From Owenia fusiformis (lineage: Eukaryota), in the NCBI GenBank assembly GCA_903813345.2, contig CAIIXF020000001.1, forward strand, positions 14,880,001 through 14,944,000: a stretch of DNA of 64,000 bases, read 5' to 3'. The position numbers were made by a program, and so were the translations under genes. Positions within the stretch are counted from its first letter, which is position 1. Each line of letters starts with the position of its first letter. Shown in pieces: positions 4,101-64,000 of this stretch. The notes under the pieces are model-generated. The model saw only the letters and a program-made list of their open reading frames with translations. It had not been told where the DNA came from and searched no databases.

Positions 4101-5371
4101 AGATCACTAAATAACTGCGAAGACGTTTTTTTCATATATAAATACAGCACTCATATTAGGAAATTTCTAGGTTTAGGAAATTATTTGGTATTAATGCTAA
4201 ATACATTTTTATCAATTTGGGCTAGTTGTTCTTTTTTCATGTGTGCCAATCCATTACTTTACTAAATATACTGTAAGCATAAGATAAATTATGACAAAAA
4301 TCAGTTAAAATTTTATAATTGATGACTTTTTATAAAACATAAACCAGTTATCGTTCTGATTTATGAACAATGATTTTATATGAATTATTTAGACATTATT
4401 TTTCGATACATTTGAGATTAAACACCCTTATTGCATTCACCCTTGAATTTAGAAAGCCGATTTTTCATTCATATAGCTCTGTTAACTATAACGTCCCTGG
4501 ATGTTTCATAAATATTTGATGTTTAGTGCCCAATGAAACTGAACTTTCCTTTCCTTTTATCAAGCTCCCTGTATGGTCTCATACACAGACATAGTATACA
4601 GCATAGTTACGAATCTTATGCTGCCTACAATTAACCAAAGGATAATTTTTTACATTTTCTAAAACAGATTCGCATTGATGTAAGAAATTAATAATAATAA
4701 TATAATACTGCTTTGGTAGATATAACTAAATATCATTTTAGGTATGTGTGAATAACAATAACATGTATATAAAATATTAGTATATGATGGTAGGAGCCGG
4801 TAGAGATTAATATAGCGTCATCTAGTCAGATAAATTATAATGCATGATTTAGAACTATAATTAGTAACTTATACTTTTAAGAATAATCTCTGTTTAAATG
4901 ATAGATGCTGAAACAATTGTTCCATGGTGCACTAGACATATTAAAAAAAATAGTAAAAATATTTTTCTGGATACTACATTAGCAATAGATATCTGCAATA
5001 GAGGCATTGAGTTTTTAAAATGTAGAATATATAGAAGCACCCATCCTATTCTAAGTACTTTATTAAACGTTTTTTTAATTATAATAGCTAAATCTGAATC
5101 AATGAAATGATCACTGAATTGTATAACAATTAAAGTGTATTTATATTGAATGATAAGTACAAATCCCTTCAGTATAAATGTACACCTTCTATAGTCTTCT
5201 ATAGAAACTTAAATATGCTGCTATCATGCTAGAATAACCCCTTCTTGTATATGTCCCTTCCATGTCTTTCTGTGTATGTCAATTTTATTTGATGATTTTT
5301 TGCAATCTGAATACATTTGTAGTGAGTAGACACCTTCTTGCTTTTGAACGTGCCGCACGATTTATTTCCAG

Positions 5372-6258
5372 GCTATGGACACAGTACACCAAAAACCGAT
5401 GCCGGGAAAATATTCTGCATGGCTTATGCACTGGTAGGGATACCACTTGGGATAGTCATGTTCCAATCTATAGGAGAACGTCTTAATACATTCGTGACTT
5501 TGTTGCTCAAAGTCTTAAAGAAATGTGCCAGAATGAAGAAGACTGAAGTATCTCAAACTAATTTGATAATCATTGTGTCAAATCTCAGCGTATTAGTCGT
5601 GACAGCGGGTGCCGCTGCGTTCAGCAATTATGAAAAATGGCCATACCTTGACTCCATCTATTATTGTTTTATCACATTAACCACGATAGGGTTTGGAGAT
5701 TATGTAGCCATACAGAAAGATGGACATCTCCAATCAAAGCCAGAATATGTGGCATTTACTTTGATATTTATCCTTTTTGGACTAAGCATTATATCTGCTG
5801 CTATGAACCTTCTAGTGTTGAGATTCCTTACCATGAACACTGAAGATGAACGACGTGAGGAGATTGAAGCAGCTAATGCCAGAGCCAATGCCGTCAAACT
5901 AGATGGTGATGTAATATTATCAAACGGGTCAATGATTACTGCACGTTTACATGAGACCCAGGTAGACTTCCAAGAACCTGATTTACATTCGGTTTGTTCC
6001 TGTTCATGCTACAACCTAGGACATAGTTCCTCTAATAGTTTAGATAACACCAGGAAAAAACACAGGAAAAATAATTCAAAATCAAAAGCAACGAGATACA
6101 AAGTAACGAGATCACCAGGCAGGATAGGCCATCTATTGCAGCTAAAGACCATAAATGAAAGTGAGCATCAGAAACAAATGCAGACACAGGTTCAAATAGA
6201 ACAAACTGAATCTCTTCTCAGTCAACACTACCTTCAATCCAAAAGAGCATCAATATGA
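5372..6258 (+). CDS. KCNK9: TASK-type two-pore K+ channel (KCNK3/KCNK9/sup-9-like), terminal coding exon copy A (P1 filter to C-terminus); first exon not in window
   Basis: Acceptor TTTATTTCCAG|G at 5361-5372. Reads (G)YGHSTPKT...[13 protein letters not shown]...[11 protein letters not shown]...KRASI*. Has the His after GYG, the second pore loop TIGFG, the X-gate VLRFLT and a TASK-like basic/Ser C-terminal motif. Confidence 0.92.
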
Positions 6259-15810: not shown

Positions 15811-16915
15811 ATTCGTACAATTTCTGAAAGCTTCGGTATATTTCTACTGCACGATCGATGTTTAGAGATCTAGAGTGACATTGGTGGGGGTCGTCAATCT
15901 CATAATTTAATATCTTCCTATTTATCATATAGCTTAACTTCTTACAAGTCAATGATTTCTTACACATATCGAGTTGATATATTACTTTCAAGTGAGCAGT
16001 TAATCGCCTGCAAACATTATTCATCATGCATCAGTAATTGTAGATATGATAATGTTTTGATTAAAAATAGATTTCATTTTTCAAATTCAGTTAATATGGG
16101 CACGCTGACATGACATTTACATAAGAAATAGGTTATTTTTTTTGTACTATGATTGATGGTTTAGAAATTGTTTATCTCTTTAGCATTCAATACAATAGAT
16201 TTAATATTTAACAGCATTCTATCTCAAGAATATTAAAATTTGAACACTTTTTGTCCTATTTTATATCCTAGTGACCTCGATTAATGTTCATGTTGACCTC
16301 GATTGAGATATTTCAGGGAGAGACAGGTAGAACAGCATGTTATGTGAACCGTTAAATGTGAACACCAATAATCTAATCGTTTAATACTTGGAAATTTCTG
16401 TCCTTACTTATGTTAACAAAGATATTAGTTCACTCACAAGAGGTCTCAATTCTAAAAAATCTCATGGAAATTTGTTTCACCTGAAGATTTACCTTCCCAA
16501 TGTTCTACCATTTATCCACCTTTTTAAGTGTGCTGTGCCATCAGCACTTTGAAGGTGCATGTACTTAGTCTAACCATGTTCAATATAATACCACTTGATT
16601 ATCACAAATCCCCCCTATTAATGAATATTTTAACAGTACTGTTTAGTCTTCCTTATTATCCCTTAATATAATAATGACATCTCCCCTTTAATGTTTATTA
16701 CACAGAAATTAAGTGATTAAAATTAAGATTATCCCCCCCACCAAAGCAATCTCTCTTATTGTTAAAATTCACATTGAATTTCCAGGGACTTTCAAGTCCA
16801 CAGAATTTCATAAATTTATATTCATTGTAATCTTCACCAACTGGGTAAATTCAAACATGTCTTCAGAGGAATACATATAGTAACATTCAATAAAGCTGAT
16901 ATTCTATATTTCCAG

Positions 16916-17772
16916 GTTATGGTCACAGTACACCTAAGACAGACAGTGGCAAAGTCTTCTGTATGGCGTATGCTCTAGTAGGTATTCCCCTATGTCTGGT
17001 CATGTTCCAGAGTATTGGTGAGAGGCTCAATACATTCGTAACTTGGATTATAAAAAACCTCAAAAAATGTGCACGCACTAGGAATTCCGATACTGTATCG
17101 CAGACTAATCTAATAGTGGTTGTATCGAGCCTTAGTGTTATTGTTGGTTGTGCAGGTGCTGCGGCTTTTAGGAGCTACGAAAAATGGCCATATTTGGATG
17201 CCATCTATTATTGCTTTATTACACTAACTACAATAGGATTTGGAGATTTTGTAGCACTTCAGAAGAAGGATACATTACAAAATAAGCCAGAATATGTAGC
17301 ATTCAGTCTAGTATTTATTCTGTTTGGGCTGACGATTATTTCTGCTGCAATGAACCTGCTAGTGCTGCGATTCTTGACAATGAATACAGAGGATGAACGG
17401 CGTCAGGAAATTGAGACGGCCGTCGCGAGAGCTCAAGCTGTAAGACTAGAAGGAGATGTCATAACTGCAAATGGTAATGTTGTTTCACTAGAGCAGAGAG
17501 AGGAAGCACTACCTGAGTTCAAAGAGCCAGATTTACAGTCCGTCTGCTCTTGCACCTGTTATAATATGCGTGAAAAGAAAACGAAGAACAGGCGGTATAA
17601 AGTGACACGATCTCCAGGGAAAATTGCCCATTTATTACCATTACATAGACTCAGTGGAAGACCATCCAATGGTCATCAAGAATCACCACATACTAAAGAT
17701 GATATTTATAGTAATTATGACGATAATTCAGTTTTACAAAATTTATTAAAGACTAAAAGGGCATCCATTTAG
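16916..17772 (+). CDS. KCNK9: TASK-type two-pore K+ channel, terminal coding exon copy B
   Basis: Acceptor CTATATTTCCAG|G at 16904-16916, same phase as copy A. Reads (G)[18 protein letters not shown]...TIGFGDFV...VLRFLTMN...KRASI*. The frame is intact. Confidence 0.92.
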
Positions 17773-31900: not shown

Positions 31901-34900
31901 AGACGCTGAACACCAACCACCAAACATCAACCATTGAAAACCAAACACTGAACACCACCTACATAAATTGACACAAAGAAGCATGAACTAGCTAATATTT
32001 AACAAATGATCTTTTGCTGTTTAAGTGTAAAATAAAAATACTCTCATATCTATTTCTAAAAACTAGATTTTAAATGACTATGAGACATTCATTTGACAAA
32101 ATGTGCGACAACTGGTTCAGGCAAAAATGGTGATGGTCACAAAAATGGTGGCTAATATAGGGGAAGTCGTCCTATCAGCGCACGGTTACTCAGGGAAACT
32201 AGTGAGCATTTCTTCTAAAATTTAAGTAGTGTTTGATATTTCTCAATCTCCGAACGCTAACACTTTAAGACCCCTTAGACTCACATGTGGGGTGGTCCTA
32301 ATTATCGCACAGTCGTCCTAATTATCGCACAGTTGTGTTTCAGATGTCATTTCACGATACTGTATACATTTCTCTGTTTATAACAGATACACACATATGC
32401 TATAATGATTTTTCTATCGGTTTTAGTGTAAAATATCAACAAAATATCCATTATACACTTTCTTTTCTGTCTTTATTTGGAGGGGGTCAAACTTTGTCAG
32501 ACGAATTTCACTTCTTGCGCAATAGCATTTATGACAATAGCGGAAGTAAACAATTCTTAAAAAAGAAGAGATATTTCTAAATATATGAATAAATCATGAA
32601 GATTGGGAGTAATTGTGTTGAACTGTTTTTCGTAACACTGGTTTAAGAGACGGTGGGTGCATATTTTAGCTATTTACACAGATCCGGAGCCAGATCCAGC
32701 CCCTATTGGTACTAGGCTCAAAGGATTTATAATTATTAGTATATTTATTGAGCCTAGACACAGAGGAGGTAATCTAGCAGAGGTCCGTGGCTATTTAGGA
32801 CAATCATGTGATAATTAGGACCGTGCGATAATTAGGACCATTTCCCCTATGTAATTGTTACCATGTTTTTCTTCTAGAAAAGGATACAATAAGCCACCTA
32901 ATATTGACTAGTTCTGCTATTTGCTGTGAAACAGAAGTGTTAAACTGTGATGCTACATTCGAATGAGCTAAAGAGATGGCAGACTGTACAGATAGACCAG
33001 ATGTTGAGGAAGTGTGCATGTCACTATGTATGGGCGACCCTGAACTGTCATTGAATTGCACTAACATACACCTCTCTATCAGCAGGCTCAACCTGAAATA
33101 AAACATACAGGTAAATATGACACTTATATAGTATGCATGTACAATATACACCTTCTCTACGTCAATAGCCTTGTTTCAGCTTATTATTCTTTAGTTATAA
33201 AAGGCACTCATATGGTGAGTCTGTATACTGCAGAAAATGTGATTCCTCCAAAACGGACTAAAGTGAGAGACATGACCAGTTGTGTAAACCACTTAAAGTG
33301 GATATGGACAGCCAGACAGATGAGTAGGTGATTCCATAGGACAATGTGAGAGTCACAAACCATGGAGTTTTCAAAAATGTTGCCATTCATGCCATTCTGC
33401 AGTTCTGTAATTAGAAGGTACTAACTCCTCAACTGAGAATTGAACTTACAGGTAGGAAACATTTCCTGAATGGTGCGGGAGAGGAGTTTCAGACAGTGTT
33501 TGTTTGTATGTGTTAGATCATAGTTACTACTTTACTAGATGTGCTGATTTTTGTATTTTTTGTAATATTCTTTAGTCTTTCCCCTTTGAGCACTTGTGGT
33601 GATAGATTCATTTATTCGAGAGAATTTCTATTTTCAGAATCTTATTTCCTTTTTAATTATGATTATTACCATACCTTCCTGTTTGTCCGCTTTGTAACAC
33701 TATACTCTTCATGTCATAGAAGATAATCACTTCCTCACTGGTAGCATTCGTAAGGGAGACAAACAGGTTACATCGCCTGGAACTAAATGGAAGAAGGAAA
33801 TAGATTTTTGTTAATAATTTGTTATTCACGATACTCAACTTATGTAATACTTTGTGAACATTCAACACTATAAGGTCAAATAATATAAATGCAAAACATA
33901 TTTCATTTTCTCTGAACAAACTAAACAAGGCATTAGCATACAAAATGTCACTACCTGCCATTTGTTACAGAACACCAACCACCAAACACTGTCCACAAAA
34001 ATATTGGAGACTATATAATATGTCACCACTTCTAATGGCGACATAAAAACGAATCGAATAATAAATAAAATAAAATTACTTTCTTTCATAAAAGAAAGAA
34101 TATTTTGAATTTACATTAATAATGTTGACAGTTTGTTACCTGTGTGGTGTGACATGGCATTCCTTTACAATAAGACATGGCTTGATCTCAATGTTGATAG
34201 AGACGGCACACTGCCTGCAGTAGCCTTCTACCATCCCCTCTCCCCCACTGTATTTGAACTGTAGCAGACCTTCATAGTTCTGAAACACAAGTTCACTTCA
34301 GTTGAGAATATCCTAATATTTTAAGTCAATGCATGGCCTCAATGGAAATCATGTAATTTACAGCACTACACACAACCGTTTGTCATTTATAGGTGTTTTT
34401 TGCACTATAACTACTTAAAGCCATCTAACGTGGGCTGAAGATTTTCTCTTCTTTATTATTTGTTGTATACTAATATTGTATATTATTGTGTATTATTATT
34501 TGTTTTTCGGAATTTCAAGGTCGGAATTTTTATAAGGGCAGGTACATTGGTATCTCTGATATCAATATTTAATTGATAAATAATCATTTATTGATTTTGG
34601 GTATGACCACTCACATATCAGAATTCCTAGATTGAATGAACCAATGTTAATTTATGCCAATATACTACATTGCCAGACATTTTGAATCTAGATAACATTA
34701 CATCATAGTTAAAGTCTATACATGTAAATATGCATACAGGGTGTCCAATAAATAAGGTGAAAGATATTGTAACTTTCCTAATATTGCACCAATCTTGATG
34801 AAATTTTCAAACCCATTCTTGCCCATTTCCTGAAGTCTCGCTAAGACATGTGATCTGAGTTCATCAGTGCTTCCAAATTTATTTCCTCTCAAGTCACGCT

Positions 34901-37900
34901 TGAGTTCTGCATATAAGTAAAACTCATTGGGTGCAAGTTCTGGGGAATATGGAGGGTGTGCAAGTAGGGGAAGCCCCAGTGCCCTAATAGTTTCACTAGT
35001 GAGCATAGCTGTGTGTGAACCCAGATCACATGTCTTAGCAAGGAAATAGGCAGGAAGTGGGCAAAAATTGGTTTGAAAGTGTGTTTAGAGAGTGGGTGAA
35101 TAGGCATAAGAGTGTATAGCTAGAGATGGATATTATGTTGAATAGCTTATTTTCATAACAATGGGACTTTAGGACTGTTTTTATATTGTATTTGTGGTAG
35201 TAATAGACCTGGGAGTACGAATAAAGCTATCAGAAAGAATAATAAATATGTTTTGGTAAGTTGTGACGTAAACAAACTTGCCCCGCCTTTTTGTTGTATC
35301 GGTTGCTATAGCAACCACAACTCTGGCCAATCAAATAGAAGATGCTTTAAATTCACAGAATAAAGGTAAAAAGGTTTGGGCTACAAACCCTGAAAATTTC
35401 ATCAAGATTAGTGCAACATTAAGAAAGTTACAATATCTTTCACCTTATTTATTGGACACCCTGTATGTAGTGCATGCATTTCTATAACAAAGTTACCAAA
35501 ACAATTTCCTCACCATAGTTTTGTTCTGGTCTGCTGCATTATTATGTGATACTACAGGTTGGTCTGAAAAATGAGAAACTCTCTTAATGAAAAAACATAG
35601 CATCCATTACATTTTACGCAAGGCTCTTCACAACTATGTTAATTTTAAATGTATCAATTTAATGAAAACAATAACATATAAACAAACATTTATTTGAAAT
35701 ATTTTAATGAATTTCTTCAATATCAAACAGTAAAGAGAGAGTGTTTCTATGTTGAAGAACTACCTACTTTGTATAAATTGTTTCTGCCCAATGTCAACAT
35801 GCATATTATGCAGACCATGCATGTACACAGTGAATGCTGCTTGGTTATCTTTCTCTATGGGCAATTGTGACTGCAAATTCTCATGGTTCCATACTAGCAC
35901 CTTATCTAAACTATCTGAAATGAAGTGACAATATTCTTTAGATTTATCTTTTACAATCGAATATACATTTAAGGGTCAAAGCAAACATTTGTCATAACTG
36001 TATAGTCATTGAGAAATCATTTTGAGATGAAAACCACTTTAGGTTAAAATGAAACCAATTTACATAGTCTTGTATTAAGTTCAAAACCGTTCCAATCTCG
36101 GAAGAGGATAACAAGGAGCTGGGGACTGGCCAGAGACTAATGCAATTGACCATATTCAAGAGTAAAATAAATAAAAAAGTTTTCAATGTTTTTGGTTTTT
36201 AGTGCAATTGGTTTTTGTTCCTTTTTACCAATTCTTGAGAATGAAATAAAATATCTTTCCGAAGCTTGCTGGAACAAAATTAAGAAATATAGACTGAAGG
36301 GCAGGGGTAATATTGTTGAATACACCCCACAGGGCTAGGCACAAACGTTTTCTGTACCCTGAATGACCGAAGGGAGTGAGGGGTTCGAAAGCTTTTGTGC
36401 CTAGCCCTAAGGGGTGTATTCGACAATATTACACCTGCTATTGAGGTTTATATTACGATTCGAACATGAAAACTCACCAAAATGTTTTGAATATTCATTA
36501 CATTCTGCCATTACTACGGCATGCCGTTATGATGTCACACATTACACATATTACCAGGGGTATTCTTCACGAATATACCCCGGGTGAAATGTTGACTTTG
36601 TTAACAGTTTATAGAAGACGTGAATACAGTCATGTTTGCATTTGCGAGGATTTTGTATCAAAAATCTAAATTTGCGCAAAATCTGCGAAGAGAGCATTCA
36701 AGAAGCTAATAAAATATTTTGTTTTTGCAATTTTATGCATTTTGCGATAGACTTGCTAACCTTTACTGCAAGATGATTCTAAATGTAAGTCCACACTCTC
36801 CACTGTCTCATTCCCAACATTCTTCAATGTGATTTGGCACTCTTTACTAAAACATAAATCAAATAAATACATGTTAATTATCAATGACAAAAGTTGAGTT
36901 GCAAAAATATGGTGGCTGTAATTTGTTAGCTTCTTTGATGAAAACATTCTAATTTGTGTACTACATTGTGATTGTGTTTCACACCAATATGGCACAATCT
37001 TCATATTATTATATAAGTTCCATGTTGATAATTGTGTAAATTATGGCAATTATATTGTGTATCATCAATAACAATATGAAGTACATCCTTACAGCTAAAC
37101 TATTGATAACATCAAAATCACAATATTGATGTTATACAGATCTTGGGAACAAGAACACATCAAATTAAACTCAATTATCATTAAGTCTTACGTGTTATGT
37201 TTTATTCAGTTGAGTTATCTATGAAAAAGAGTGTACTTTCCAAAAAGATAATGCATACCTCTCTCCCATATACAGTACAACACTTGTACTTGATACTATA
37301 TTGGCTGATCCCCTACAACTACTGAAACTACCAGACTTTGGTAGAGATGACATGACTTGTACACGAGGGAGAGGTGGAATGATGTTGATGTTGTAATAGG
37401 GATATTTAAGATGTGAAAGACTTCTGAGTCGGCAGTTACTTTTCACACCAAACACATGTGTGGTGTAGCCTAAAAGAAGAATTAAAATTCAATATGTATG
37501 AAGGGTATTGTACTTATTTGCGTAATTTTTGACTATTTTAAATAATCAGTTACCTAAATATAACACCTTCCTCGGTACATCATTTCAGAGCACCTTTAGC
37601 CAATTTTGTAAAAATTTGCCACAAACATATGTATTGTATTGTATTGTAAAATCACAAACATTTGCCATCAACATTTTGAAATGGAGCTATTTTAAAACTA
37701 CGTAAAATTTTACATGTTAGTTATAAATTCATTATACATAGACATGAGACATACCAACAAGTTTTAACTCTCCATTCTCTCTAGGTGTCCCTAGTATTTT
37801 CACAGGGTAGGGACCACTCTCAGGGGGTAAGGTCATGCTGGCAGGAAAACATTCAAATGCTACTACATCAGTCATTAAACCCTATAAAACATAGAAACCA

Positions 37901-54547: not shown

Positions 54548-55049
54548 TATATGAAATGACACACAAAGTCAGTCACTTGAAGACATGTGGAGGGCGAATC
54601 TTACGAGCAGTTGTTATGGATACCAAAAACTGTGTATAGACCAGTCAACAGTGGTGTAAAATCATAGTAAACAGTGATTTTAAGTCATCTAGAAATGTTA
54701 GTCACATAAAAACTTTAGATGATATAATTTCACTAGGAGACTGGTGATGTTAAGTCACCATGAAATATGAAGTCATATAGAGATGTCAGTGTTAAAAACA
54801 TTAATGATGTCATTTCACACTTGAACCAGGGATGTCACATCATAGTAATTGTGTAATCAGGTATTCAAGTCATATGGATGACAGATTGAATGTAAGACCT
54901 ACATGTATTTCAAATTAAACAAGTTCTATAAAGTGAGCAACAGTTATTATTGTATTTTATTTTCACATATAATATTGATAACAATAGTGTCATTGGTGCT
55001 GAGATTTGCAAATTTGTTAAATTACAATGACAAATTACAATAAGTATAC

Positions 55050-55055
55050 AATAAA
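55050..55055 (+). terminator. Candidate polyadenylation signal of SNRNP48
   Basis: AATAAA about 500 nt after the stop, followed by TG/T-rich sequence at 55078-55102. Confidence 0.45.
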
Positions 55056-56191
55056 CATTGAGGTAATGTATCTAATGATTTGTGTTTCTGCTATATTTTT
55101 TGTATAACTATGACAGTTAAATGCCTTTGTATCAAACAGGATTGTCATCATTAGCTTACAATTGGCATTTTATAAGACTTAAATATCAAAAAACACCACA
55201 TGTGAAAATGTCAGGAAAGTTTGATAGACTAGGCTATACATTTGATAGGCCCATACAAGTAATCTACCACACTGATAGTCTAATCTGAAATTATTTCGGT
55301 GGATTAACACACTTATTAACTGGATAAGAGTGGACAAATGAAAGTTTAGCAAATCACCATTTCTGGGTCCTGTTGCCAATGTACATTATATTGTCCACTT
55401 TTAGCATATGGTCTATCTATTACCTATCTATCCATCTGTCTAGATATATCACGTGCAAATGTACAATTAATGATTCTATACAGTGAGTAATACAATGACA
55501 TACAAGTATATCAGAAGTATGACGAGGCAAAGGAGTAGTCGAGGCAAAAATAGACTAAAAGATGGACGTTGCTACCTATGTACTCCATTTATACAGTTTT
55601 ATTTCAAAGTTGAAAAAACGCCGGAATAAATATGATTTTGTAAGCCTTTGGTGAGGCATTTGGCTCTCTACCCCTCATGCCTGGCTTCATCATTGACTCT
55701 CTACCCCTCATGTCTGGCTTCATCAATGACATGTCAAAACAATGACTGGTCGGTCAAGATAGTAACTACACTCGGAGGAAGTGAAGTTGTCACTGTTATG
55801 TTTTGTGACTGAATTTTCCTAATTTCCTGATTTTGAGAAAACATGTTTGAGAATAAATTGTCAGTGAGGCAAATTAGAAAGTGGTGTCAAATTACTACAG
55901 AAGTTGATTTTGAACTGTGAAACGTCTAGTAGACATGATTTTAAAATCACCAAAAAAGTCGAGTGACATTGTACACTTCCTCCAAGCTTAGTCATGTATT
56001 ATAACAATGAAGGACTTGTCATGTCATTTACTTTTCAAATTGTCCTGTCAGATTTTAAATGAGTGTTGACTACCAGCCATTTGCTTTTTATTGCTACACG
56101 AACAGTGTATTCAACATTGTTGAACGGTGTATTCTAAAGCAAATTTTGTAATGTAAGAAAGCTCACACATCGGAGTCACTTTGTAGTTAAC

Positions 56192-59100
56192 CTAGAGGTG
56201 AATAAAAGAGTGAATCAACACAATAACAGAGGAGATCAAAAACGAAGATGCAGCAATTGTAGAAGCACTGCTGCAGTAGTCTTTCCACCAAAGGTTCCTG
56301 AGGCGGGAGAGGGTCCCGTCTTCCTGCATTCGTAGAATAGCAAGATTAAACGTTGATACGTGGGGAGAACCTTTCGAGAAAGCCAGTCCGTACCCCCACG
56401 AATTAAGTGGATTACCTATAACTTTGACATCGCATGGTCGATGTTTTGACCAGTAGTCCGCCATGACGCTGTCCATGATAAAATAATAATTGCCTTGTCT
56501 CACTCGATCTACTCCCGTCGCTGCTTTATCAACAAACACAGATGGGTCCGAATTCATTTTGGCCCACATGCGTGCATAGAGACCATAGGTTGAATTTTGG
56601 AAAAACTGTTTCGTCAGACCATTTTGTATCGTGCCATATTTTGCCGTGTTTTGATTAGCGAGTTCCCCCACACTCTTGATTTCGAGAGGATTCTTGCCCA
56701 AGATGACAGTTCCAGTAGTCATGAAGGGCAAGGTGAAGTCCAAGACGTTCAGACGCGTCGATGTGATCGTCAGTGGCGCAGCTGCAAAGTCAGCGTCCTA
56801 GAATCGAAGCACAATGATGTAATTTCATTAATTCAATTTCCAATTACCTCATTTTGCTTAATTATTGCACAAGCTGTTTGCTGTAATTGTTTAATCTTAG
56901 CACCCAAGTTCCGTTCTTGCAAAATTACTTGTAGTAGACAAAGATGGATTCTAACAATTAGAACTAATTAAGTGATCCGACATGCCGGGGGGAATGGGCG
57001 AATGGTTCATATCACTACACCATTCTAGGTATCCACGAGGCAGATGTAATGTGTGGTTTCATATAGAACACGGTTATTTAACATAAATACGTTACTTACA
57101 TTATAAATATTATTATTGAATGATTTGAAGTGCATTACAGGATATATTCTGCTCTCGATATTCTGTATTGGCACTCGAAAAAAAGTGTTACAAATATATT
57201 GATAATTTCAGAATATACAGTTGGTGCTTGGCTTTAATGCCTTACTTTCATGTAATCATCTTTTTTGAACTAACATGAGAACCATTCATTAAAGTAAAAC
57301 CCGAAGAGAATTGGAATATTTTGCTTCATATAATTATTGATTTACATGTATATCCCATTGTATTGTGATATTGAGAAGCATCAGTGCCAGAGCGCATATT
57401 CTTTGACAAATACCACAGAGATATGTTCGACTAAAACTAAATCTTGATAGCCGAGAGCATGCAATGAGTACGAACGTGGTGTGATTATCAAATTAATATA
57501 ATATATAAGTAAACCGAATACTGGATAATGGAGTGAGAATTTTGGTAACAGGAGTCAACGGCCATGGGCAACGAATGTCGTGGCAATGTCTGCTTCTGCA
57601 ACTATATATATACGTGTGACTCCAAGATGGCCCCGAGTATTCTCCAAAGACTTTTTCATCCATTCCTGAGACATTAAGTCATCAAGTGGAACCAAACAGT
57701 TGCCAAAGAACATTTTCACTGTTCCACAACTAGTTACTTTGACGGAACGCCAATGTAACAAAATGGATGAACTTCCTGGTTACGAGTTCTTTTGTTTTCT
57801 CGATTTAAACCTACTTATAAGTCCAGTTGCAGATTGTAATTTGGCACAAAGCGAGAAAATATACAGTTGTCTAGCTTTAATGAATTTCTTCAATTTGGAA
57901 TTTGTTTGTAAATGAAGTTGCAATTCTTATATTAGTCCCTCGCTTTTGTTACATTGACGAAAGTCCGTTATATTACCAATGTATGTTACTTTGCCGACTT
58001 ACGTCAGTGTAACAAAAACGATGGTCTAAATGCATGAATTACAGCTTTATTTAAAAATCTGATTCCAAACCGAGAGCACTTCTTAAAGCTAGACTATATT
58101 TTCTAACTTTGTGCCAAATGATAATCTGCAACTTGACTTATAATTAGGTTTAAATCGAGAAAACAAAAAACTCGTATCCAAGAAGTTCGTCCATTTTGTT
58201 ACATTGACGTTCCGTCAAAGTAACTAGTTGTGGGACAGTAATTTTGAGAAAAAAACTCGGGACACAATTTTAGGTCACTTTACATCTTACCGGTCCCAAG
58301 ACTTCGCCGATCATCCCGGTCCACTTGCCATCACTTTTAGGAACCCCATAGGCGCCATCCTTAACGATAGATATATCAAAATTGATCCCTAGGCGATCTT
58401 TTAGTTCATCAAGCAGATCGGGAATAAAACCAGTATAGCGACCATTAACCAGTTGTTTTTCAACGAATGGCGGCTCCTGAAATATACCCATCCAACAATC
58501 TGATAAGAACGCCCTATTGTATATAAATTGAATGATTATCTTTCAAAAACGGCAATGGCTGCAACACTTGAAGCTTTCCGACAATAGAAAGAAAGCACTT
58601 TATCTAAAGAATTCATTTTGGCCTGTCTTGATTGCACATTCTGAATAAGAGAATAAAAGAGAATCAGACTTGCAAATATTATGATTTACATCTGGTAGTC
58701 TTATATCTATACCCTGGACCTTGGAGTAAATAACAGAGGGGGGGGGGGGGCAGAGTCTTGAAACAAGACCAATTTGGTAGTTATCGTATAGTTAAATTAA
58801 ACTCACATGAATTGTTGTCACTTTGAGTGTCTTTGATGTAACTGGAGTACATACTGCAAACAAAATAGAATTAACAATGATTGATTCTGTTATTCATTGT
58901 CTTGTTGCCAAGGAGATATACGTAAATATCCTAATAAACAAACAGTCCACCTGAGCTGGGCCATCATTTACTTTTAATTGGAAAAAGATTATATGTAGCT
59001 CATCCCACATTTCAGAGAAAAACTAGATAGATGCATATCCGAGAATTTGGAATTTGTATCAGTTTGATATCCGATGTGTTTGTGGAAACAGCCATTCGCC

Positions 59101-61551
59101 TTGGAAGAAAATACTGTAAAATGTTGACAGGCGTGGAATATGTATACCCTACGAAAATGCTCCACGCGAATCCAGCCCCTGTTTGGGTTTGATTTAAAAA
59201 AGTCAGTTGTGTTTGATACCCTGTGTCCCTGTCTAATTGAAACAAATCTTCCGTATCACCCTGTACCCTCCGATGGGATTGCCAAACATTCGATTTTCTT
59301 TAACTCCCAGGATTGACTCGAATTCGACGTTGCTATGAATATGAAATATATCAAACTGTAACAATATTCCGACAAAAACACATATTTCTTCGCTCCATGA
59401 TAGGTTTTAATACACAAATGGGAATATCACGTCATCAATAAATCAAATTGCAGAACAGAACAGCATTTTGAATTTTGACGACGCTAATCAAATAAACAGA
59501 TACTATTATTAGGTTTCATTACTATTTGTAATATCTTTTTTGTTGGAAATATATTTATGGTATCATATTAATAATGATCAAGGGGGAGAGTACGAGTATA
59601 ATCCGTTTGTATTTTATCAGCAGCTCTAAAAAGAGATCGATGAAGAAATTTCAACTAAACTCCCTTAAGCGAATATTAGGCCAACTCGTCATTCTTGGTT
59701 GAATTATTAATTTAAGCATTATAGGCCTATAAATACGTATACTTCTCAAAGCCACTTTAATTCAAAGACGATTTTTTCAGGATCTTATTTAAGATCTAAG
59801 CCATATTGGCTGCCGCAATAAAGACATTTTGTTGACACCGGGTGATTAGTCCCAAATTAAGAAAATTTTGAAAGTTTAAACATGTACTCTAAATTGCAGT
59901 CTTTTACTGTAAAACTGTTAAACACTTTAAAACTGTAAAACTGTTAAAAAGTCATTTTTATTTTTAATAGTAGCCTAATCAGTGTTAAAAATCATGTCAT
60001 GAATATAAGGAAATACAAGAACTGATCGACAATTTCCAATATAGCCTAATTATTATTGGATAAAAATTTGAGATAAAACAGGTTATTACAACCTAATTCT
60101 TCTTTTTAGTATTAAAAGATACGCATCTCGGAAATTTTGAATGCGATTACTCCATTTCCAAGTCATTAATTCCGTCATTGAATAATCTTCCATCAGTGTA
60201 CGATAAATAAATTGGCCATAGCGTTCCGGACGAACAAGATAATCACCCAGTTCGTGATATGGAAACGCCATGGAAAATTTCAACAAGTTGATCAAAATAC
60301 ATAACATCAACTTATGATTTTCTCATAAAAGATATGGAAATATATTGAATTGATGTGTTACATGTGTTAATGTATTTTGAGTTCGGAAATTCCCAATTGG
60401 TCGAGCATTACACACATAATCGCTTTAACTGAAACATTGGCAGACGCCAGAGGTGCTTTCAGAGGTCCACGATCATTGTTTATTCATACCGCAATTCCAA
60501 TTATAAACCAGGCCCTCCAATTATGGAGTCCTTCTGGAATTTGGTAGTCTATGGGTTCACGATCTATATAATCGTCTCATATCACGATACGTTTTGTCTC
60601 AACATTCAGTAATTAAGAAATAGAGCAAAGCTTTCGAACCCCTCACTCCCTTCGGTCGTTCGAGGTACAGAAAACATTTGTGCCTAGCCCCACGGGGTGT
60701 ATTCGATGATATTACACCTGCCCTGAGGTCTATATTACGATTCGAACATGAAAACTACGGGCGAAAACTACATTACTACGGGCCGCCGTCACACATTACT
60801 CGTTGTACCAGGGGTATTATTCGCGAATATAACCCGGGCGAAATATTGACTTTGTTCACTATTTATAGAAGGCGTGAATACAGTAATGTTAGAATATCTT
60901 ATAGTAAATACCATAACGTTGATAATATACGACATGCAAGCAGGTAAATTCAATTGCCTTATTTTTACGACGTTAATTTCATAAATGGTTTTAGTTAAAT
61001 GATCACATAAAATACATTGTCAAACAAAACATGTTTTATTTGATTTTTAATGTGCAAATAATCTATTTTTAATATCAGATGAACAATCAGATGGAAAATC
61101 AAACATGAAAAAGTAAGTACAAGACATGCTTATCTTTGAAAGGAAGCCACAAAATGAGATTCGATATTTTCTAGGGCATCATTATAACGAAGGAATATAT
61201 CAGTTTTGTTCATAATACTTACACACCGTTTTTGGAACTAATCCAATTAACAACTCTGGGGTTTTCAACCTAATATATTAAAAGTAAAGCTAAATATTCA
61301 TTTTGTCAATAATAAAATCGACAGAAATCAACATCTTCTTAGGATGAGTTGAACTAAGTAGTTGGTATTAATATATAGATAAATAAAAATAAATCATACA
61401 CGCAATGTAAAAATATCAAGGGGTGACAAAATCATATAGGCGAACCCAACTCTTTAAATCGAGGAGTTACCATGAAATAAAAATCGGTGAATTTTAACTT
61501 ACCTTGCAAGAACATCAGAAATCCTACAACTTGTGATGCCAATGTTTGCAT
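56192..61551 (-). CDS. Channel-less ionotropic glutamate receptor-like ligand-binding protein (signal peptide + fused S1S2 + predicted GPI signal), 4 exons, ~295 aa
   Basis: Exons 61551-61503 (MQTLASQVVGFLMFLQ), 58853-58807 (VCTPVTSKTLKVTTIH), 58476-58291 (EPPFV...DGAYG...WTGMIGEV) and 56797-56192 (DADFAAAPLTITSTR...DFTLPFM...IKSVGELANQ...YGLAFSKGSP...WWKDYC plus hydrophobic tail). Canonical GT-AG introns with consistent phases. An alternative in-frame ATG lies at 61566. Confidence 0.88.
57719..58238. mobile_element. MITE with ~90-bp TIRs in intron 3 of the iGluR-like gene
   Basis: CTGTTCCACAACTAGTTACTTTGACGGAACGCCAATGTAACAAAATGGA pairs with TCCATTTTGTTACATTGACGTTCCGTCAAAGTAACTAGTTGTGGGACAG|TA. 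Confidence 0.8.
60629..60890 (+). repeat. Hairpin-type interspersed repeat, copy 2 (truncated, spacer inverted)
   Basis: The right arm and tail align with 36394-36636. The segment 60629-60676 is the reverse complement of 36346-36393. Confidence 0.8.
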
Positions 61552-61690
61552 GTCGTGTCCAATCATTCTAAGACGACCAGTGCATGGATTGACCCTCTCA
61601 ATGTATGCTCTCACACCGACACGATTGATGCAAGTGGTTTCTCGGACCCGCTGCAATTTGATTATTAAGTCGCTGTACAAAGAGAACTTT

Positions 61691-61777
61691 CTTTTTAATA
61701 ATATCACATGGGATTCCAGTGCTTCTTGATTGGTTCCTATCGCGAGAACAATTGGATTAACCAATCATGTTCCCAAT
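61691..61777 (-). promoter_or_regulatory. Candidate core promoter of the iGluR-like gene
   Basis: Four CCAAT/ATTGG boxes (61729, 61751, 61761, 61773) upstream of a minus-strand TATTAAAA at 61700-61693, about 140 nt before the ATG. Confidence 0.4.
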
Positions 61778-62537
61778 GACGAGAGGATAATATTGTCCCC
61801 CAGCAGAATATTCCAATTCTGAGTAAATTGAGGTCACATAACATGGTTCAAAATGACGTTATTTGCACTTTGGTGATTTATAACAGAGCCAAACGCAATT
61901 ACTTTACAATATATAATCACTAGCAATTCCCATTTATTTTTGGTGGGACAATAAATTGAATTTATTATCGTGTAACAGACAACTTATTTAAGTTTTAATC
62001 ATACCATAAATGCATTTTATTGTTCTATATATCACCGATAATAGTTTCCGTCCTTTCGCGCTTCCAACCCAGTCCTCCATCGACACGTCTACTTCGCCAA
62101 CGTTGTCTCCATGACCATTCAGTTATCGCGGCCAAGTTCCACCATACCCCTTGTCACACGAACGCTCCATTAATCCAGTTATAGAATTCCTCCAGAATCA
62201 TTATATAGGACGAGTTTAATCAGGTTTGCATGATTAATGTGAAACTGTCCCCTAAATGGATTAGACTAGTTTTAATACTATTGACTGATACCACGGCGTG
62301 AATAATAAACAACGTTGACAACTGAACAGCAAAAGAATGTGTATCCATCTCTAAGATCACTTTATGAATCTTTCGCTCCTTGTCGTTAATGTCTCCCACC
62401 GGTCGAAGGACTCTCATTATTGTTGTAATATCTGTGGTCCCTTGTCAGTTTTGTGTCAATCCAGCCCAGGTTCCTAAATATGAGAAACACCAAACACAAT
62501 TTAAAATTTAACAATCTCTAAGAAATCAGATCTTTTT

Positions 62538-63212
62538 ATCGTATGATCTGTAAAATGAAGCCCTTTGATTGGCCAATTCTTGTGCTGTACCAATCTGTAT
62601 TGCTACTGAGATTGTCCCCGTTGATCATCTCCGTCGCAATACAGAAGATATTGGTACGGAGGGGACAATCTCAGAAGCAATACAGAAGATCACACGATAA
62701 AAACGTTATAGAATGATTTGACGTGCAATACAGGATATATTCTGCTCTCTATATTCTTGGCGATAAGATCACACGATAAAAACGTTATTGAATGATTTGA
62801 AGTGCAGTACAGGATATATTCTGCTCGAGAAATTCTGTATTGGAACGAGACGAAGTCGAGTGCCAATACAGAATATCGAGACACTTCAAATCATTCAATA
62901 ACTTAATATATTATCGTATGATCTGTAAAATAAAGCCCTCTGATTGGTCAGTTCTTGTGCTGTACCAATCTGTATTGCTACTGAGATTGTCCCCGCTGAT
63001 CATCTCCGTCTCAATACGGAAAATATTGGTACGGAGGGGGCAATCTCAGTAGCAATACAGAGGATCACACGATAAAAACGTTATAGAATGATTTGAAGTG
63101 CAACACAGGATATATTCTGCTCTCTATATTCTGTATTGGCACTCGACTTCGTCTCGTAACAATACAGAATTTCCTGTATATCCTGTATTGCCCTTCAATT
63201 CATTCAATAACT
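62538..63212. repeat. Complex direct and inverted repeat cluster (hairpin family, two ~220-bp direct copies)
   Basis: 62538-62757 is repeated at 62913-63132, with internal hairpins. A related fragment lies at 57113-57180. Confidence 0.8.
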
Positions 63213-63216
63213 TATA

Positions 63217-63837
63217 TTATTATATCATTGCTAGAATTTGTGTCCTTTGATTGGCTGATTCAGTACCATGTGATCAAAAATACCAAAGCGTATTTCACAC
63301 CTCCCTTAATTTTGGAATAATAAAAGACGTATTGCCCGGCGTATTGCCCGCCCGGGAATTCTGAATCGTCCCGTTTCGTCCAGTACAGTTGTGACGTGCA
63401 TCAAAATGGCAGACAGAAAAAGATTTAAAAGTCTGAATTCCGATGAAAAGAACGACATCTTGAGGGATGTGCATTCTAAAAACACCATTAAATCAACGGA
63501 ATGACATCTAATGTCTTAGAACATTTTCAAGTGTTATGTGGACGAAATAGACGTTAAATCTATCGATAAAATCGTTCTGGATGGAATTTTAGAGTTTTTT
63601 TTTGAACTGCGAACGAAGGATGGGGAATATTAAAAGAGTGCCAGTCTGCAAAGTAAGCGAATGTCTAGCAATGATATAATAAAACAAATATTTCATTCTA
63701 TGTTCGGGCAATACCTGTTGCACTTTCAATGATTTTTGCAGCATGTATTTCCCTCGCCCTCCGGGCTGCGGGCAATACATGCTGCAAAAATCATTGAAAG
63801 ATGAACAGGTATTGCCCTCCATAGAATGAAATATTTG
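63217..63837 (+). mobile_element. Crypton-like (tyrosine-recombinase transposon) remnant with decayed N-terminal ORF and terminal hairpin
   Basis: Frame from ATG 63406 reads MADRKRFKSLNSDEKNDILRDVHSKNTIKSTE*...LDGILEFFFELRTKDGEY*KSASL with three stops. It resembles the region upstream of DUF3504 in Crypton/ZMYM-type proteins. A 19-bp IR at 63217-63235/63664-63682 and a hairpin at 63685-63837 accompany it. Confidence 0.6.
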
Positions 63838-64000
63838 CTTAGTATTGAGATGCCAACCTTAGTGATGAAGTGAATGATAAAATTATTGAAATTGTGGCTC
63901 ATTATGTCTCAGTAGCAATCTCAGTATAGAACGGACAGTGAAACATTCTAAAATCATTTGGGAACCTTTTGGGTGGGAGGGGGAGCAAGCATAGATACAG

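What the first reader, a model, noticed from the sequence alone, without database searches (positions are those of the whole stretch)
56192..61551. A natural 'S1S2' protein: iGluR ligand-binding clamshell with no channel, no ATD, and a GPI-type tail
Seen: a signal peptide (MQTLASQVVGFLMFLQVCTPVTS) is spliced directly onto S1 (KTLKVTTIHEPPF...). The end of S1 (FMTTGTVILGKNP) runs through a two-residue LE linker straight into S2 (IKSVGELANQ) within one exon at 56695-56678, so M1-P-M3 is truly absent rather than a missed exon. After the conserved WW...C the protein ends in SSASTIAASS plus a hydrophobic FLISSVIVLIHSFIHL with no cytoplasmic tail, the layout of a GPI-addition signal in place of M4. 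The frame is intact, the S2 disulfide pair (RPCD...DYC) is retained and a CCAAT/TATA-like promoter precedes exon 1. Known: eukaryotic iGluRs have the channel inserted between S1 and S2; the fused S1S2 form is familiar as an engineered construct; molluscan AChBP is the analogous channel-less Cys-loop protein. Inference: a cell-surface or shed neurotransmitter/amino-acid-binding decoy, buffer or co-receptor. I do not know of a characterised animal protein with this architecture.
Basis: partly seen in the sequence, partly recalled or inferred. Interest (0 to 1): 0.92.

Follow-up and report, generated by a model that had tools for sequence, protein, structure and literature searches.

The report
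Natural channel-less glutamate-receptor binding domain
An annelid worm gene makes just the ligand-binding "clamshell" of a glutamate-receptor channel, with an export signal and a probable lipid-anchor tail but no ion pore, and similar genes occur in other worms, an insect and a mite.

Summary
On the minus strand of this Owenia fusiformis window, four coding exons give a 295-aa open frame: signal peptide, a complete AMPA/kainate-type iGluR ligand-binding domain with S1 joined to S2 through two residues inside one exon, then a small-residue stretch and a terminal hydrophobic tail. RNA reads and contigs from four runs confirm all three coding splice junctions. Transcripts cross the S1-S2 junction without any insertion. 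No ATD or pore sequence was found anywhere in the 64 kb.

The fold model matches GluA2/3 S1S2 crystal structures (TM 0.91-0.93). The residues I recall as binding the amino-acid ligand are kept.

It is not an orphan. I found 35 natural S1S2-only proteins. Named ones come from Owenia, Capitella, Helobdella, the fly Bradysia and the mite Euroglyphus; the rest are unnamed records. Owenia sits in a clade with ATD-less, gate-degenerate iGluR-like proteins, and 17 of 21 S1S2-only members there carry GPI-signal-like tails.

One origin versus several is unresolved (AU p = 0.195).

The proposed promoter is not supported, because transcripts carry an upstream non-coding exon.

Nine full-text searches found no description, and a major phylogeny filtered out pore-less sequences. 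Ligand, GPI anchoring and physiological role are untested.

The parts
62005..62531 (-). Upstream non-coding exon (5' leader). Its true 5' end is unknown and may run into the repeat at 62525-63126.
   Evidence: Joint 61650>62005 with CT..AC ends (X17 1 read, X6 contig) and X6 contig 62005-62531. With the exon-1 leader it makes 626 nt holding 13 upstream ATGs. Frame 0 is closed by stops upstream of -102.
61503..61650 (-). Alternative in-frame ATGs lie at 61566 (-15) and at the end of the upstream exon (-102, used by model P0001).
58834..58853 (-). Rest of the signal peptide (through VTS). Exon 2 as a whole is 58807-58853.
   Evidence: Joints 58853>61503 and 58475>58806. Homologues begin with a comparable hydrophobic N-terminus. 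No signal-peptide predictor was available.
58291..58476 (-). Exon 3: first part of S1 (lobe D1), including the conserved Tyr of the DGAYG motif.
   Evidence: Pfam PF10613, E 1.3e-13. Joints. Residue table.
56192..56797 (-). Exon 4: end of S1, LE linker, all of S2, tail and stop codon (56194-56192).
   Evidence: Ungapped RNA contigs across it.
56753..56755 (-). Codon of the Arg that aligns with the ligand alpha-carboxylate-binding Arg of GluA2 (R485 by recalled numbering).
   Evidence: Invariant in alignment A1. R in 34 of 34 S1S2-only rows counted.
56678..56695 (-). S1-S2 junction (KNP-LE-I): the place where channel-bearing iGluRs carry M1-pore-M3.
   Evidence: No gap across the junction in the three phmmer alignments printed, against engineered GluA2/3 S1S2 constructs. 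120 residues of Haliotis P0004 (556-675) have no counterpart. RNA contigs cross it without a gap.
56195..56272 (-). C-terminal 26 residues after Cys269: small-residue (Ser/Ala) stretch, then a 16-residue hydrophobic end. GPI-attachment-signal-like.
   Evidence: The same layout occurs in 17 of 21 clade-A S1S2-only proteins and in 0 of 13 others. No GPI predictor was available.
56087..56092 (-). AATAAA about 100 nt after the stop. RNA contigs X1 and X6 end at 56097 and 56085.
   Evidence: Read; contig ends. Inference only.

Best explanation
This is a real, spliced, expressed Owenia fusiformis gene. Its product enters the secretory pathway and consists of one complete AMPA/kainate-type iGluR ligand-binding clamshell and nothing else. 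S1 is fused to S2 at the position where crystallographers cut out the channel. There is no ATD and no M1-P-M3. In place of M4 and a cytoplasmic tail there is a short small-residue stretch followed by a terminal hydrophobic segment. That segment most likely directs GPI anchoring to the outer face of the cell.

The pocket keeps the residues that hold the alpha-carboxylate and alpha-amino groups of the ligand. The protein therefore most likely closes around a free amino acid (glutamate or another) at the cell surface. It cannot pass current itself. It must act by sequestering or presenting the ligand, or by reporting occupancy to a partner.

It belongs to a wider family of channel-less iGluR binding domains that I could not find described. 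Its nearest relatives with a channel are ATD-less proteins with a degenerate gate motif.

Shown: gene structure, transcription, domain content, fold model, family membership, residue conservation. Inferred: signal-peptide cleavage, GPI anchoring, ligand binding, physiological role.
For: - Gene and transcript. Exon bounds and an intact 295-codon frame. Three coding joints plus one leader joint with GT-AG ends appear in RNA raw reads (X17, X18) and in contigs X1 and X6. Contigs cross the S1-S2 junction ungapped.
- Domain content. Pfam gives only PF10613 and PF00497. tblastn of five channel-bearing iGluRs (P0004-P0008) against the whole window hits only the S1 and S2 exons at E <= 8e-4; everything else is E >= 0.25.
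- Identity of the domain. The best PDB sequence hits are engineered GluA2/GluA3 S1S2 constructs (E 4e-43), aligned through the junction without a gap.
- Fold. The AF2 model has pLDDT 95-98 over residues 61-300 of P0001. Foldseek places GluA2/3/GluK4 LBD crystal structures on top (E 4e-32, target-normalised TM 0.91-0.93, rmsd 1.4-1.9 A over about 256 columns, 41-44% identity).
- Pocket. Arg in 34/34 rows, Thr480-equivalent in 28/34, Glu/Asp705-equivalent in 31/34, Thr655-equivalent in 28/34, Tyr450-equivalent in 28/31. Owenia has Y, P, T, R, T, D.
- Tail. A terminal hydrophobic segment with at most 6 residues after it, preceded by small residues, in 17 of 21 clade-A members and 0 of 13 other S1S2-only proteins.
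- Family. Of the 150 best of 5282 HMMER hits, 24 natural proteins of 208-340 aa besides the query match in one stretch. An HMM built from 25 of them matches each as one domain, while channel forms split at model positions about 140-144. Many sit on 1-2 kb contigs.
- Placement. A clade with SH-aLRT 97 holds 21 S1S2-only and 9 ATD-less channel forms. The best SYTANLAAF match in those 9 is at most 5 of 9, against 9 of 9 in five full-length AMPA/kainate-like proteins.
Against: - No signal-peptide, GPI or TM predictor could be run. The tail could instead be a very short membrane anchor or be left uncleaved.
- The hydrophobic end has only 16 residues and includes two His and three Ser.
- The transcript form seen has a leader of at least 626 nt with 13 upstream ATGs. 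How efficiently, and from which ATG, the frame is translated is therefore open. The database model starts 34 residues earlier, which would bury the signal sequence.
- Position 654-equivalent is Leu in Owenia where AMPA receptors have Ser, and the acidic residue is Asp rather than Glu, so the ligand need not be glutamate.
- Polymorphism gives only weak evidence of constraint. Of the 7 exon-4 variants listed, 4 are synonymous and 3 are not, against 23% synonymous expected by chance. 116 further variants over the 9 kb were not shown to me.
- No protein-level evidence exists.
Confidence: 0.65

Rival explanations
1. The protein is secreted and soluble, or held by its tail as a short uncleaved membrane anchor, rather than GPI-anchored. 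Everything else is as in the main explanation.
For: Fourteen of the 35 S1S2-only proteins end within a few residues of the last Cys or carry only short amphipathic ends, so soluble forms clearly exist in the family. The Owenia hydrophobic end is short and contains His and Ser. No GPI predictor was run.
Against: The layout recurs in 17 of 21 clade-A members although the sequences themselves differ: small residues right after the Cys, a polar spacer, and a hydrophobic end with at most 6 residues after it. In the Owenia channel-bearing paralogue P0021 the M4 segment is longer and is followed by a basic cytoplasmic tail.
Confidence: 0.2
2. It works as an accessory or dominant-negative partner. Its clamshell pairs with the ligand-binding layer of channel-bearing iGluR-like subunits (for example the Owenia ATD-less paralogue P0021) and so modulates a channel, instead of acting alone as a binder.
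For: iGluR binding domains are known to form back-to-back dimers (recalled knowledge). Owenia encodes a related ATD-less channel form in the same clade.
Against: Nothing here tests an interaction. P0021's record is a different contig (39.3 Mb against 62.2 Mb). I ran no complex prediction, because a pass would be expected from likeness to solved LBD dimers.
Confidence: 0.1
3. It is a decaying or functionless truncated duplicate of an iGluR gene that happens to be transcribed.
For: Polymorphism evidence for constraint is weak (4 synonymous against 3 non-synonymous). The long leader is rich in upstream ATGs.
Against: The frame is intact across four exons with canonical splice sites. Contig depth reached 1844 in one run. 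Homologues have the same architecture. The ligand-contact residues and the Cys pair are conserved. The model is confident and complete.
Confidence: 0.03

Closest known systems
Engineered S1S2 ligand-binding cores of GluA2/GluA3 (PDB entries such as 1ftj, 4yu0, 3m3f)
   Same: Same domain, and S1 is fused to S2 at the same place. The phmmer alignment runs through the junction without a gap (E 4e-43). The model superposes with TM 0.91-0.93. The S2 cysteine pair and the ligand-contact residues are kept.
   Different: Those are laboratory constructs with a GT linker. This one is encoded as such in a genome, spliced and transcribed. It has a signal peptide and a hydrophobic C-terminal tail, and is only 41-44% identical.
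ATD-less iGluR-like proteins, labelled in the databases 'glutamate receptor U1-like', 'glutamate receptor 2-like' or 'probable glutamate receptor' (the kainate-binding-protein type; that link is recalled)
   Same: They have no ATD. Nine such proteins (Owenia P0021, Tubulanus, Ptychodera, Glandiceps, Liolophura, Ylistrum and three unnamed) share a clade with the Owenia protein (SH-aLRT 97). Their SYTANLAAF gate motif is degenerate.
   Different: They keep M1-pore-M3 and M4 with a cytoplasmic tail. The Owenia protein has none of these.
Molluscan acetylcholine-binding protein, AChBP (recalled, not tested here)
   Same: Same idea: the extracellular ligand-binding part of a ligand-gated channel family made on its own, without a pore.
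   Different: Unrelated fold and superfamily (Cys-loop, pentameric, soluble). This is an analogy of design, not homology.
Bacterial periplasmic or lipoprotein amino-acid-binding proteins (Pfam SBP_bac_3)
   Same: A stand-alone two-lobed binding domain. Pfam SBP_bac_3 matches (E 4.6e-08). JGI labels several unnamed homologues 'ABC-type amino acid transport substrate-binding protein'.
   Different: The Owenia gene has spliceosomal introns. It is 37-49% identical to animal iGluR binding domains and nests among them in the tree. It is a derived animal iGluR, not a bacterial-type gene.
Protostome Ionotropic Receptors (IRs)
   Same: Divergent iGluR relatives. In the Capitella/Helobdella sub-clade the Thr and Glu contact residues are lost while the Arg stays, which resembles what I recall of many IRs.
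   Different: IRs keep the ion channel. The Owenia protein clusters with ATD-less iGluR-like proteins; the single IR-labelled hit (P0228, IR25a) was not put in the tree.

Membership tests
iGluR superfamily (as ligand-gated channels) | S1S2 two-lobed ligand-binding domain (Pfam Lig_chan-Glu_bd / SBP_bac_3 fold) | tested here: met
   Pfam; PDB sequence hits at E 4e-43; model and Foldseek TM 0.91-0.93.
iGluR superfamily (as ligand-gated channels) | Pore module M1-P-M3 with the SYTANLAAF gate between S1 and S2 | tested here: not met
   S1 and S2 are two residues apart inside one exon. 120 residues of P0004 are absent. There is no Lig_chan Pfam hit. No pore-like hit occurs anywhere in the window. 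The best SYTANLAAF match is 4 of 9, outside any pore context.
iGluR superfamily (as ligand-gated channels) | M4 helix followed by a cytoplasmic C-terminal domain | tested here: not met
   The protein ends in a 16-residue hydrophobic stretch with no residues after it. Compare P0021.
iGluR superfamily (as ligand-gated channels) | Amino-terminal domain (ANF_receptor) | tested here: not met
   No Pfam hit. No tblastn hit in the 64 kb. The upstream exon is closed by stops. Sequence beyond the window end could not be searched.
iGluR superfamily (as ligand-gated channels) | Ligand-contact residues (Arg, Thr and acidic residue for the alpha-amino-acid moiety; numbering recalled) | tested here: met
   Owenia has Y, P, T, R, T, D at the aligned columns. 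The Arg is present in 34 of 34 rows.
ATD-less iGluR-like proteins (U1-like / kainate-binding-protein type) | Signal peptide directly followed by S1, with no ATD | tested here: met
ATD-less iGluR-like proteins (U1-like / kainate-binding-protein type) | Four hydrophobic segments M1-M4 | tested here: not met
ATD-less iGluR-like proteins (U1-like / kainate-binding-protein type) | Phylogenetic grouping of the binding domain | tested here: inconclusive
   A clade of 30 rows has SH-aLRT 97 in the 170-row quick tree. No starred set holds P0001 in the 146-row or the 80-row quick trees. Fish proteins labelled U1 or 'probable glutamate receptor' fall elsewhere.
GPI-anchored surface proteins | N-terminal signal peptide | tested here: inconclusive
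   There is a hydrophobic N-terminus with small residues before the S1 start. Homologues start the same way. No predictor was available, and the start codon is ambiguous.
GPI-anchored surface proteins | C-terminal signal: small omega-region residues, polar spacer, terminal hydrophobic stretch, no cytoplasmic residues | tested here: inconclusive
   My own hydropathy rule is met by Owenia and by 17 of 21 clade-A members. NetGPI/PredGPI were not available.
GPI-anchored surface proteins | Lipid anchor demonstrated (PI-PLC release, mass spectrometry) | not testable with these tools
   Bench experiment.
Bacterial SBP_bac_3 binding proteins | Closest relatives bacterial; partner ABC transporter | tested here: not met
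   The closest relatives are animal iGluRs. The gene has introns.

The most novel reading that the evidence does not exclude
These proteins are the glutamate-receptor family's counterpart of AChBP. They form an old, protostome-wide (or older) family of surface-tethered and secreted amino-acid-binding proteins that arose from ATD-less, gate-degenerate iGluRs by loss of the pore. The distal-pocket residue (position 654-equivalent) takes eleven different residues among the 21 clade-A members. That would tune different members to different amino acids, for perireceptor sensing of dissolved amino acids or for shaping amino-acid transmission.
Probability: 0.3. Interest if true: 0.85.

Novelty: new variant of a known kind. 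Interest (0 to 1): 0.72.

Why it matters
The isolated S1S2 core has been the workhorse of glutamate-receptor structural pharmacology, but as a laboratory construct. Here nature makes the same object, exports it and probably tethers it to the membrane, and does so in several animal groups.

That raises a testable question: what does a neurotransmitter or amino-acid binding domain do without a channel? Possible answers are buffer, decoy, chemosensory carrier or co-receptor. AChBP, the analogous protein of the nicotinic family, proved very useful (recalled).

These proteins are naturally soluble or tethered, presumably well-folding LBDs with varied pockets. They may serve for ligand screening, structure work or sensor design.

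The family also shows a gap in method. A key iGluR phylogeny kept only sequences with a conserved SYTANLAAF pore motif (PMC6307864, passage seen). Channel-less and gate-degenerate members were therefore excluded by design.

Tried and rejected
- The genome search 'own' found no genome held for this window. Paralogues and sequence beyond 64000 could therefore not be searched.
- The look-up of sequencing runs listed no RNA holder. I laid two species-label RNA raw-read runs and two contig runs instead.
- The treekit AU test of 'all S1S2-only in one clade' did not finish after 864 s on 168 rows, nor after 471 s on 80 rows. A plain IQ-TREE run timed out. A fast LG+G4 version finished: the constrained tree is 44.2 lnL worse, p-AU 0.195, not rejected. 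The free trees need 7-8 changes, and starred branches force at least 4 (170 rows), 3 (80 rows) or 1 (146 rows). The number of origins is open.
- Nine literature searches found no description of a natural S1S2-only or GPI-tailed iGluR domain. I saw only search listings, apart from the passages read in four papers. PMC6307864 gave the relevant filter. PMC12226733, bioRxiv 10.1101/259044 and PMC2924276 gave nothing relevant. Subscription journals and supplements were not visible.
- The search of earlier findings by words, by sequence and by place gave only an unrelated Naegleria analogue.
- The protein atlas returned a 56-member Chordata-labelled cluster with LBD families only (score 0.90). I did not follow it; it may hold constructs or fragments.
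- P0015 (258 aa) among the short hits is the engineered GluA3 S1S2 construct by its sequence, and I excluded it from the family count. P0129, P0111, P0220 and P0224 keep pore remnants and were not counted.
- Complex prediction was not used. No binding claim is made, and a pass would be expected from solved LBD dimers.
- I considered retrogene origin and rejected it: the gene has three coding introns and one leader intron.
- I considered horizontal transfer of a bacterial binding protein and rejected it.

Full report
**What is there.**
The region holds a minus-strand gene. A motif search fixed the exon edges:
- exon 2: 58853-58807
- exon 3: 58476-58291
- exon 4: 56797-56192

Joined in a script, these give 888 nt, that is 295 codons with one stop at the end.

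Exon 4 alone encodes the end of S1, a two-residue LE linker, all of S2, and a 26-residue tail after the last cysteine. The tail is a Ser/Ala-rich stretch followed by 16 mostly hydrophobic residues that end the protein.

**The gene is transcribed as modelled.**
I laid two RNA raw-read runs (X17, X18) and two contig runs (X1, X6) on 55000-64000. The contig runs behave as RNA: their contigs skip the introns at GT-AG sites.

| Joint | Support |
|---|---|
| 56796>58290 | X17 2 reads; X1 and X6 contigs |
| 58475>58806 | X17 1 read; X18 2 reads; X1 and X6 contigs |
| 58853>61503 | X17 3 reads; X18 2 reads; X6 contig |

All three have CT..AC ends on the plus strand. An X1 contig covers 56097-56796 and an X6 contig covers 56490-56796, both without gaps. 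The S1-S2 junction is therefore in the RNA exactly as in the assembly, in samples that carry their own SNPs. X6 contig depth reached 1844.

A fourth joint, 61650>62005 (X17 1 read; X6 contig), together with an X6 contig over 62005-62531, shows an upstream non-coding exon.

That leader is at least 626 nt long and has 13 upstream ATGs. Two of them are in frame and open, at -15 and at -102. The -102 ATG is the start used by the 329-aa database model P0001.

The extra 34 residues of that model fold to nothing (pLDDT about 40). Homologues start directly with a hydrophobic N-terminus. I therefore favour a start at 61551 or 61566, but this is not settled.

**No hidden channel or ATD.**
- Pfam finds only Lig_chan-Glu_bd and SBP_bac_3 in exons 3 and 4 at E <= 1.
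- tblastn of five channel-bearing iGluRs (P0004-P0008) against all 64 kb hits only the S1 and S2 exons (E <= 8e-4). Every other hit has E >= 0.25.
- Against Haliotis P0004, S1 aligns to 443-555 and S2 to 676-809, so 120 residues are missing in Owenia.
- Frame 0 of the upstream exon is closed by stops.
- The stop codon is followed about 100 nt later by AATAAA, near where the RNA contigs end.
- Sequence beyond base 64000 could not be examined.

**What the domain is.**
The best PDB sequence matches, of 374 at E <= 0.001, are the engineered GluA2 and GluA3 S1S2 constructs (E 4e-43). In the three alignments printed there is no gap at the junction, so the natural LE linker sits where the laboratory GT linker sits.

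An AlphaFold2 model built on a 26-row alignment has mean pLDDT 86, and block means of 95-98 over residues 61-300 of P0001.

Foldseek puts GluA2, GluA3, GluA4 and GluK4 binding-core crystal structures on top. Values are E about 4e-32, target-normalised TM 0.91-0.93, rmsd 1.4-1.9 A over about 256 columns, and 41-44% identity.

**The pocket.**
I used the GluA3 construct P0015 as a ruler; the residue numbers are recalled GluA2 numbering. Owenia has Tyr450, Pro478, Thr480, Arg485, Thr655 and Tyr732. It has Asp for Glu705 and Leu for Ser654.

| Position | Among 34 S1S2-only rows counted |
|---|---|
| Arg485 | 34 of 34 |
| Thr480 | 28 of 34 |
| Glu/Asp705 | 31 of 34 |
| Thr655 | 28 of 34 |
| Tyr450 | 28 of the 31 rows with a residue |

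P0115 was left out of the count by my slice. It also has the Arg in the printed table.

Position 654 is Ser, Ala or Thr in the insect-containing clade, but takes eleven different residues in the Owenia clade. A Capitella/Helobdella sub-clade has lost Thr480, Thr655 and Glu705 while keeping the Arg. This pattern fits binding of an alpha-amino acid, or at least a carboxylate, with diversified side-chain preference. That is inference.

**A family, not an orphan.**
HMMER of P0001 against 1.84 billion representatives gave 5282 hits at E <= 0.001. Among the 150 listed:
- 26 are 208-340 aa long and match in a single stretch. One is the query and one (P0015) is the engineered construct, which leaves 24 natural homologues.
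- An HMM built from the 25 natural sequences matches each as one domain across the junction.
- The ordinary two-domain channel forms split there, mostly at model positions 136-148, with a large insertion in the sequence.

A profile search added ten more: P0185, P0188, P0197, P0200, P0201, P0214, P0218, P0226, P0230 and P0237. P0185 is a 543-aa protein with two complete S1S2 units in tandem.

Named members:
- Owenia fusiformis
- Capitella teleta (CAPTEDRAFT_147793)
- Helobdella robusta (HELRODRAFT_72217)
- the fly Bradysia coprophila (XP_037035873.1)
- the mite Euroglyphus maynei

The rest are unnamed Logan, JGI, ENA and MERC records, many on 1-2 kb contigs that hold little more than the whole open frame.

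**Placement.**
The 170-row quick tree used LG+C20 PMSF on 269 binding-domain columns. Rows left out: P0003, P0009, P0010, P0013, P0019, P0044, P0067, P0109, P0129, P0146 and P0237.

In this tree Owenia falls in a clade of 30 rows with SH-aLRT 97. The clade holds 21 S1S2-only proteins and 9 ATD-less channel-bearing proteins: Owenia P0021, Tubulanus, Ptychodera, Glandiceps, Liolophura 'U1-like', Ylistrum 'U1-like' and three unnamed.

Eleven other S1S2-only rows, including Bradysia and both halves of P0185, form a clade (SH-aLRT 96) inside the group that contains the Nicrophorus 'kainate 2-like' protein. Three rows stand singly.

The free trees need 7-8 changes of the trait. However, a fast LG+G4 AU test on 80 rows does not reject a single clade of all 35 (delta lnL 44.2, p-AU 0.195), and the mixture-model AU test never finished. 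Quick-tree stars are also less reliable. One origin or several: open.

In the nine ATD-less channel forms of the Owenia clade, the best match to SYTANLAAF is at most 5 of 9, which is near the 3-4 that pore-less proteins reach by chance. Five full-length AMPA/kainate-like proteins have 9 of 9. The pore was therefore probably already unconventional in the lineage where it was lost. That is inference.

**The tail.**
My rule was a 12-residue window with Kyte-Doolittle mean >= 1.8 within the last 25 residues. The windows that met it have at most 6 residues after them.

Seventeen of 21 clade-A S1S2-only proteins meet it, Owenia included. In most of them Ser, Gly or Ala directly follows the last cysteine. 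None of the 13 other S1S2-only proteins meets it. The sequences of these tails are not alignable, so it is the layout that is conserved.

That is what a GPI-attachment signal looks like (established knowledge). No predictor was available and no experiment exists. The channel-bearing Owenia paralogue P0021 instead has a longer M4 and a basic cytoplasmic tail.

**Constraint.**
Of seven exon-4 variants listed, four are synonymous and three are not. Random change would give 23% synonymous. This is weak, and 116 variants over the 9 kb were not shown. The stronger argument is conservation of architecture and pocket across the family.

**Mechanism, with odds.**
The most likely reading (0.65) is an exported, surface-tethered clamshell that closes on a free amino acid. 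It then acts by sequestering the ligand, presenting it, or signalling through a partner.

Rivals:
- soluble, or anchored by an uncleaved tail (0.2)
- an accessory that pairs with channel-bearing subunits (0.1)
- a functionless relic (0.03)

**Known or new.**
Nine full-text searches found no description of a natural S1S2-only iGluR protein.

The 2018 metazoan iGluR phylogeny states that sequences with fewer than four conserved SYTANLAAF residues were not considered (PMC6307864, passage seen). That explains how such proteins escape notice.

The sequences themselves are in public databases as hypothetical or 'kainate 1-like' proteins. I cannot see subscription journals or supplements.

I rate this a new variant of a known kind: the iGluR binding domain as a free-standing, probably lipid-anchored protein family.

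**Earlier scan notes.**
One note (e1-671830) describes a GPI-tailed, permuted bacterial-type binding domain in Naegleria. It is an independent analogue, not a relative, and it did not change my reading.

Noticed in passing
window 5326-6258 (+) and 16900-17772 (+): Two long open frames, each with two Ion_trans_2 stretches (E about 1e-24). They look like a tandem pair of two-pore-domain potassium channel genes. They lie about 40 kb from the iGluR-like gene, on the other strand, and nothing links them to it.
   Followed up: partly
window 62525-63126: A block of short repeated units with very high RNA depth (X6 up to about 114,000), many loose ends and odd joints. It looks like a high-copy repeat or MITE-like element next to the 5' leader exon, and it may hide the true transcription start.
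   Followed up: no
window about 57709-58310 (intron 3): A long inverted repeat, visible by eye, with arms of roughly 150 nt. It has high multi-copy RNA depth and several non-canonical joints, so it is probably a foldback transposable element inside the intron.
   Followed up: no
window 34716-35084 (-): An open frame with a weak DDE_3 transposase match (E 0.0012, below Pfam's cut-off), probably a transposon remnant.
   Followed up: no
protein P0185 (unnamed JGI contig of 2080 nt): A 543-aa protein with a signal peptide and two complete S1S2 units in tandem, with no pore: a natural double clamshell.
   Followed up: partly
proteins P0002, P0226, P0230, P0237 (unnamed ENA genomic contigs): All four ORF-style models begin at HMM position 105, the same point as the start of Owenia exon 4. 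This suggests a conserved intron position and a single last exon encoding S1-end, S2 and tail in these homologues.
   Followed up: partly
proteins P0021, P0020, P0079, P0086, P0070, P0222, P0215, P0103, P0145: ATD-less channel-bearing relatives, from Owenia, a nemertean, hemichordates and molluscs, have a degenerate SYTANLAAF gate motif (at most 5 of 9). They too would be dropped by motif-based filters in iGluR surveys.
   Followed up: partly
protein P0111 (296 aa, MetaClust): An S1S2-like protein that keeps about 30-40 residues between S1 and S2, including the end of M3 (LAAFLTVERM). It may be an intermediate, a splice form or a model error.
   Followed up: no
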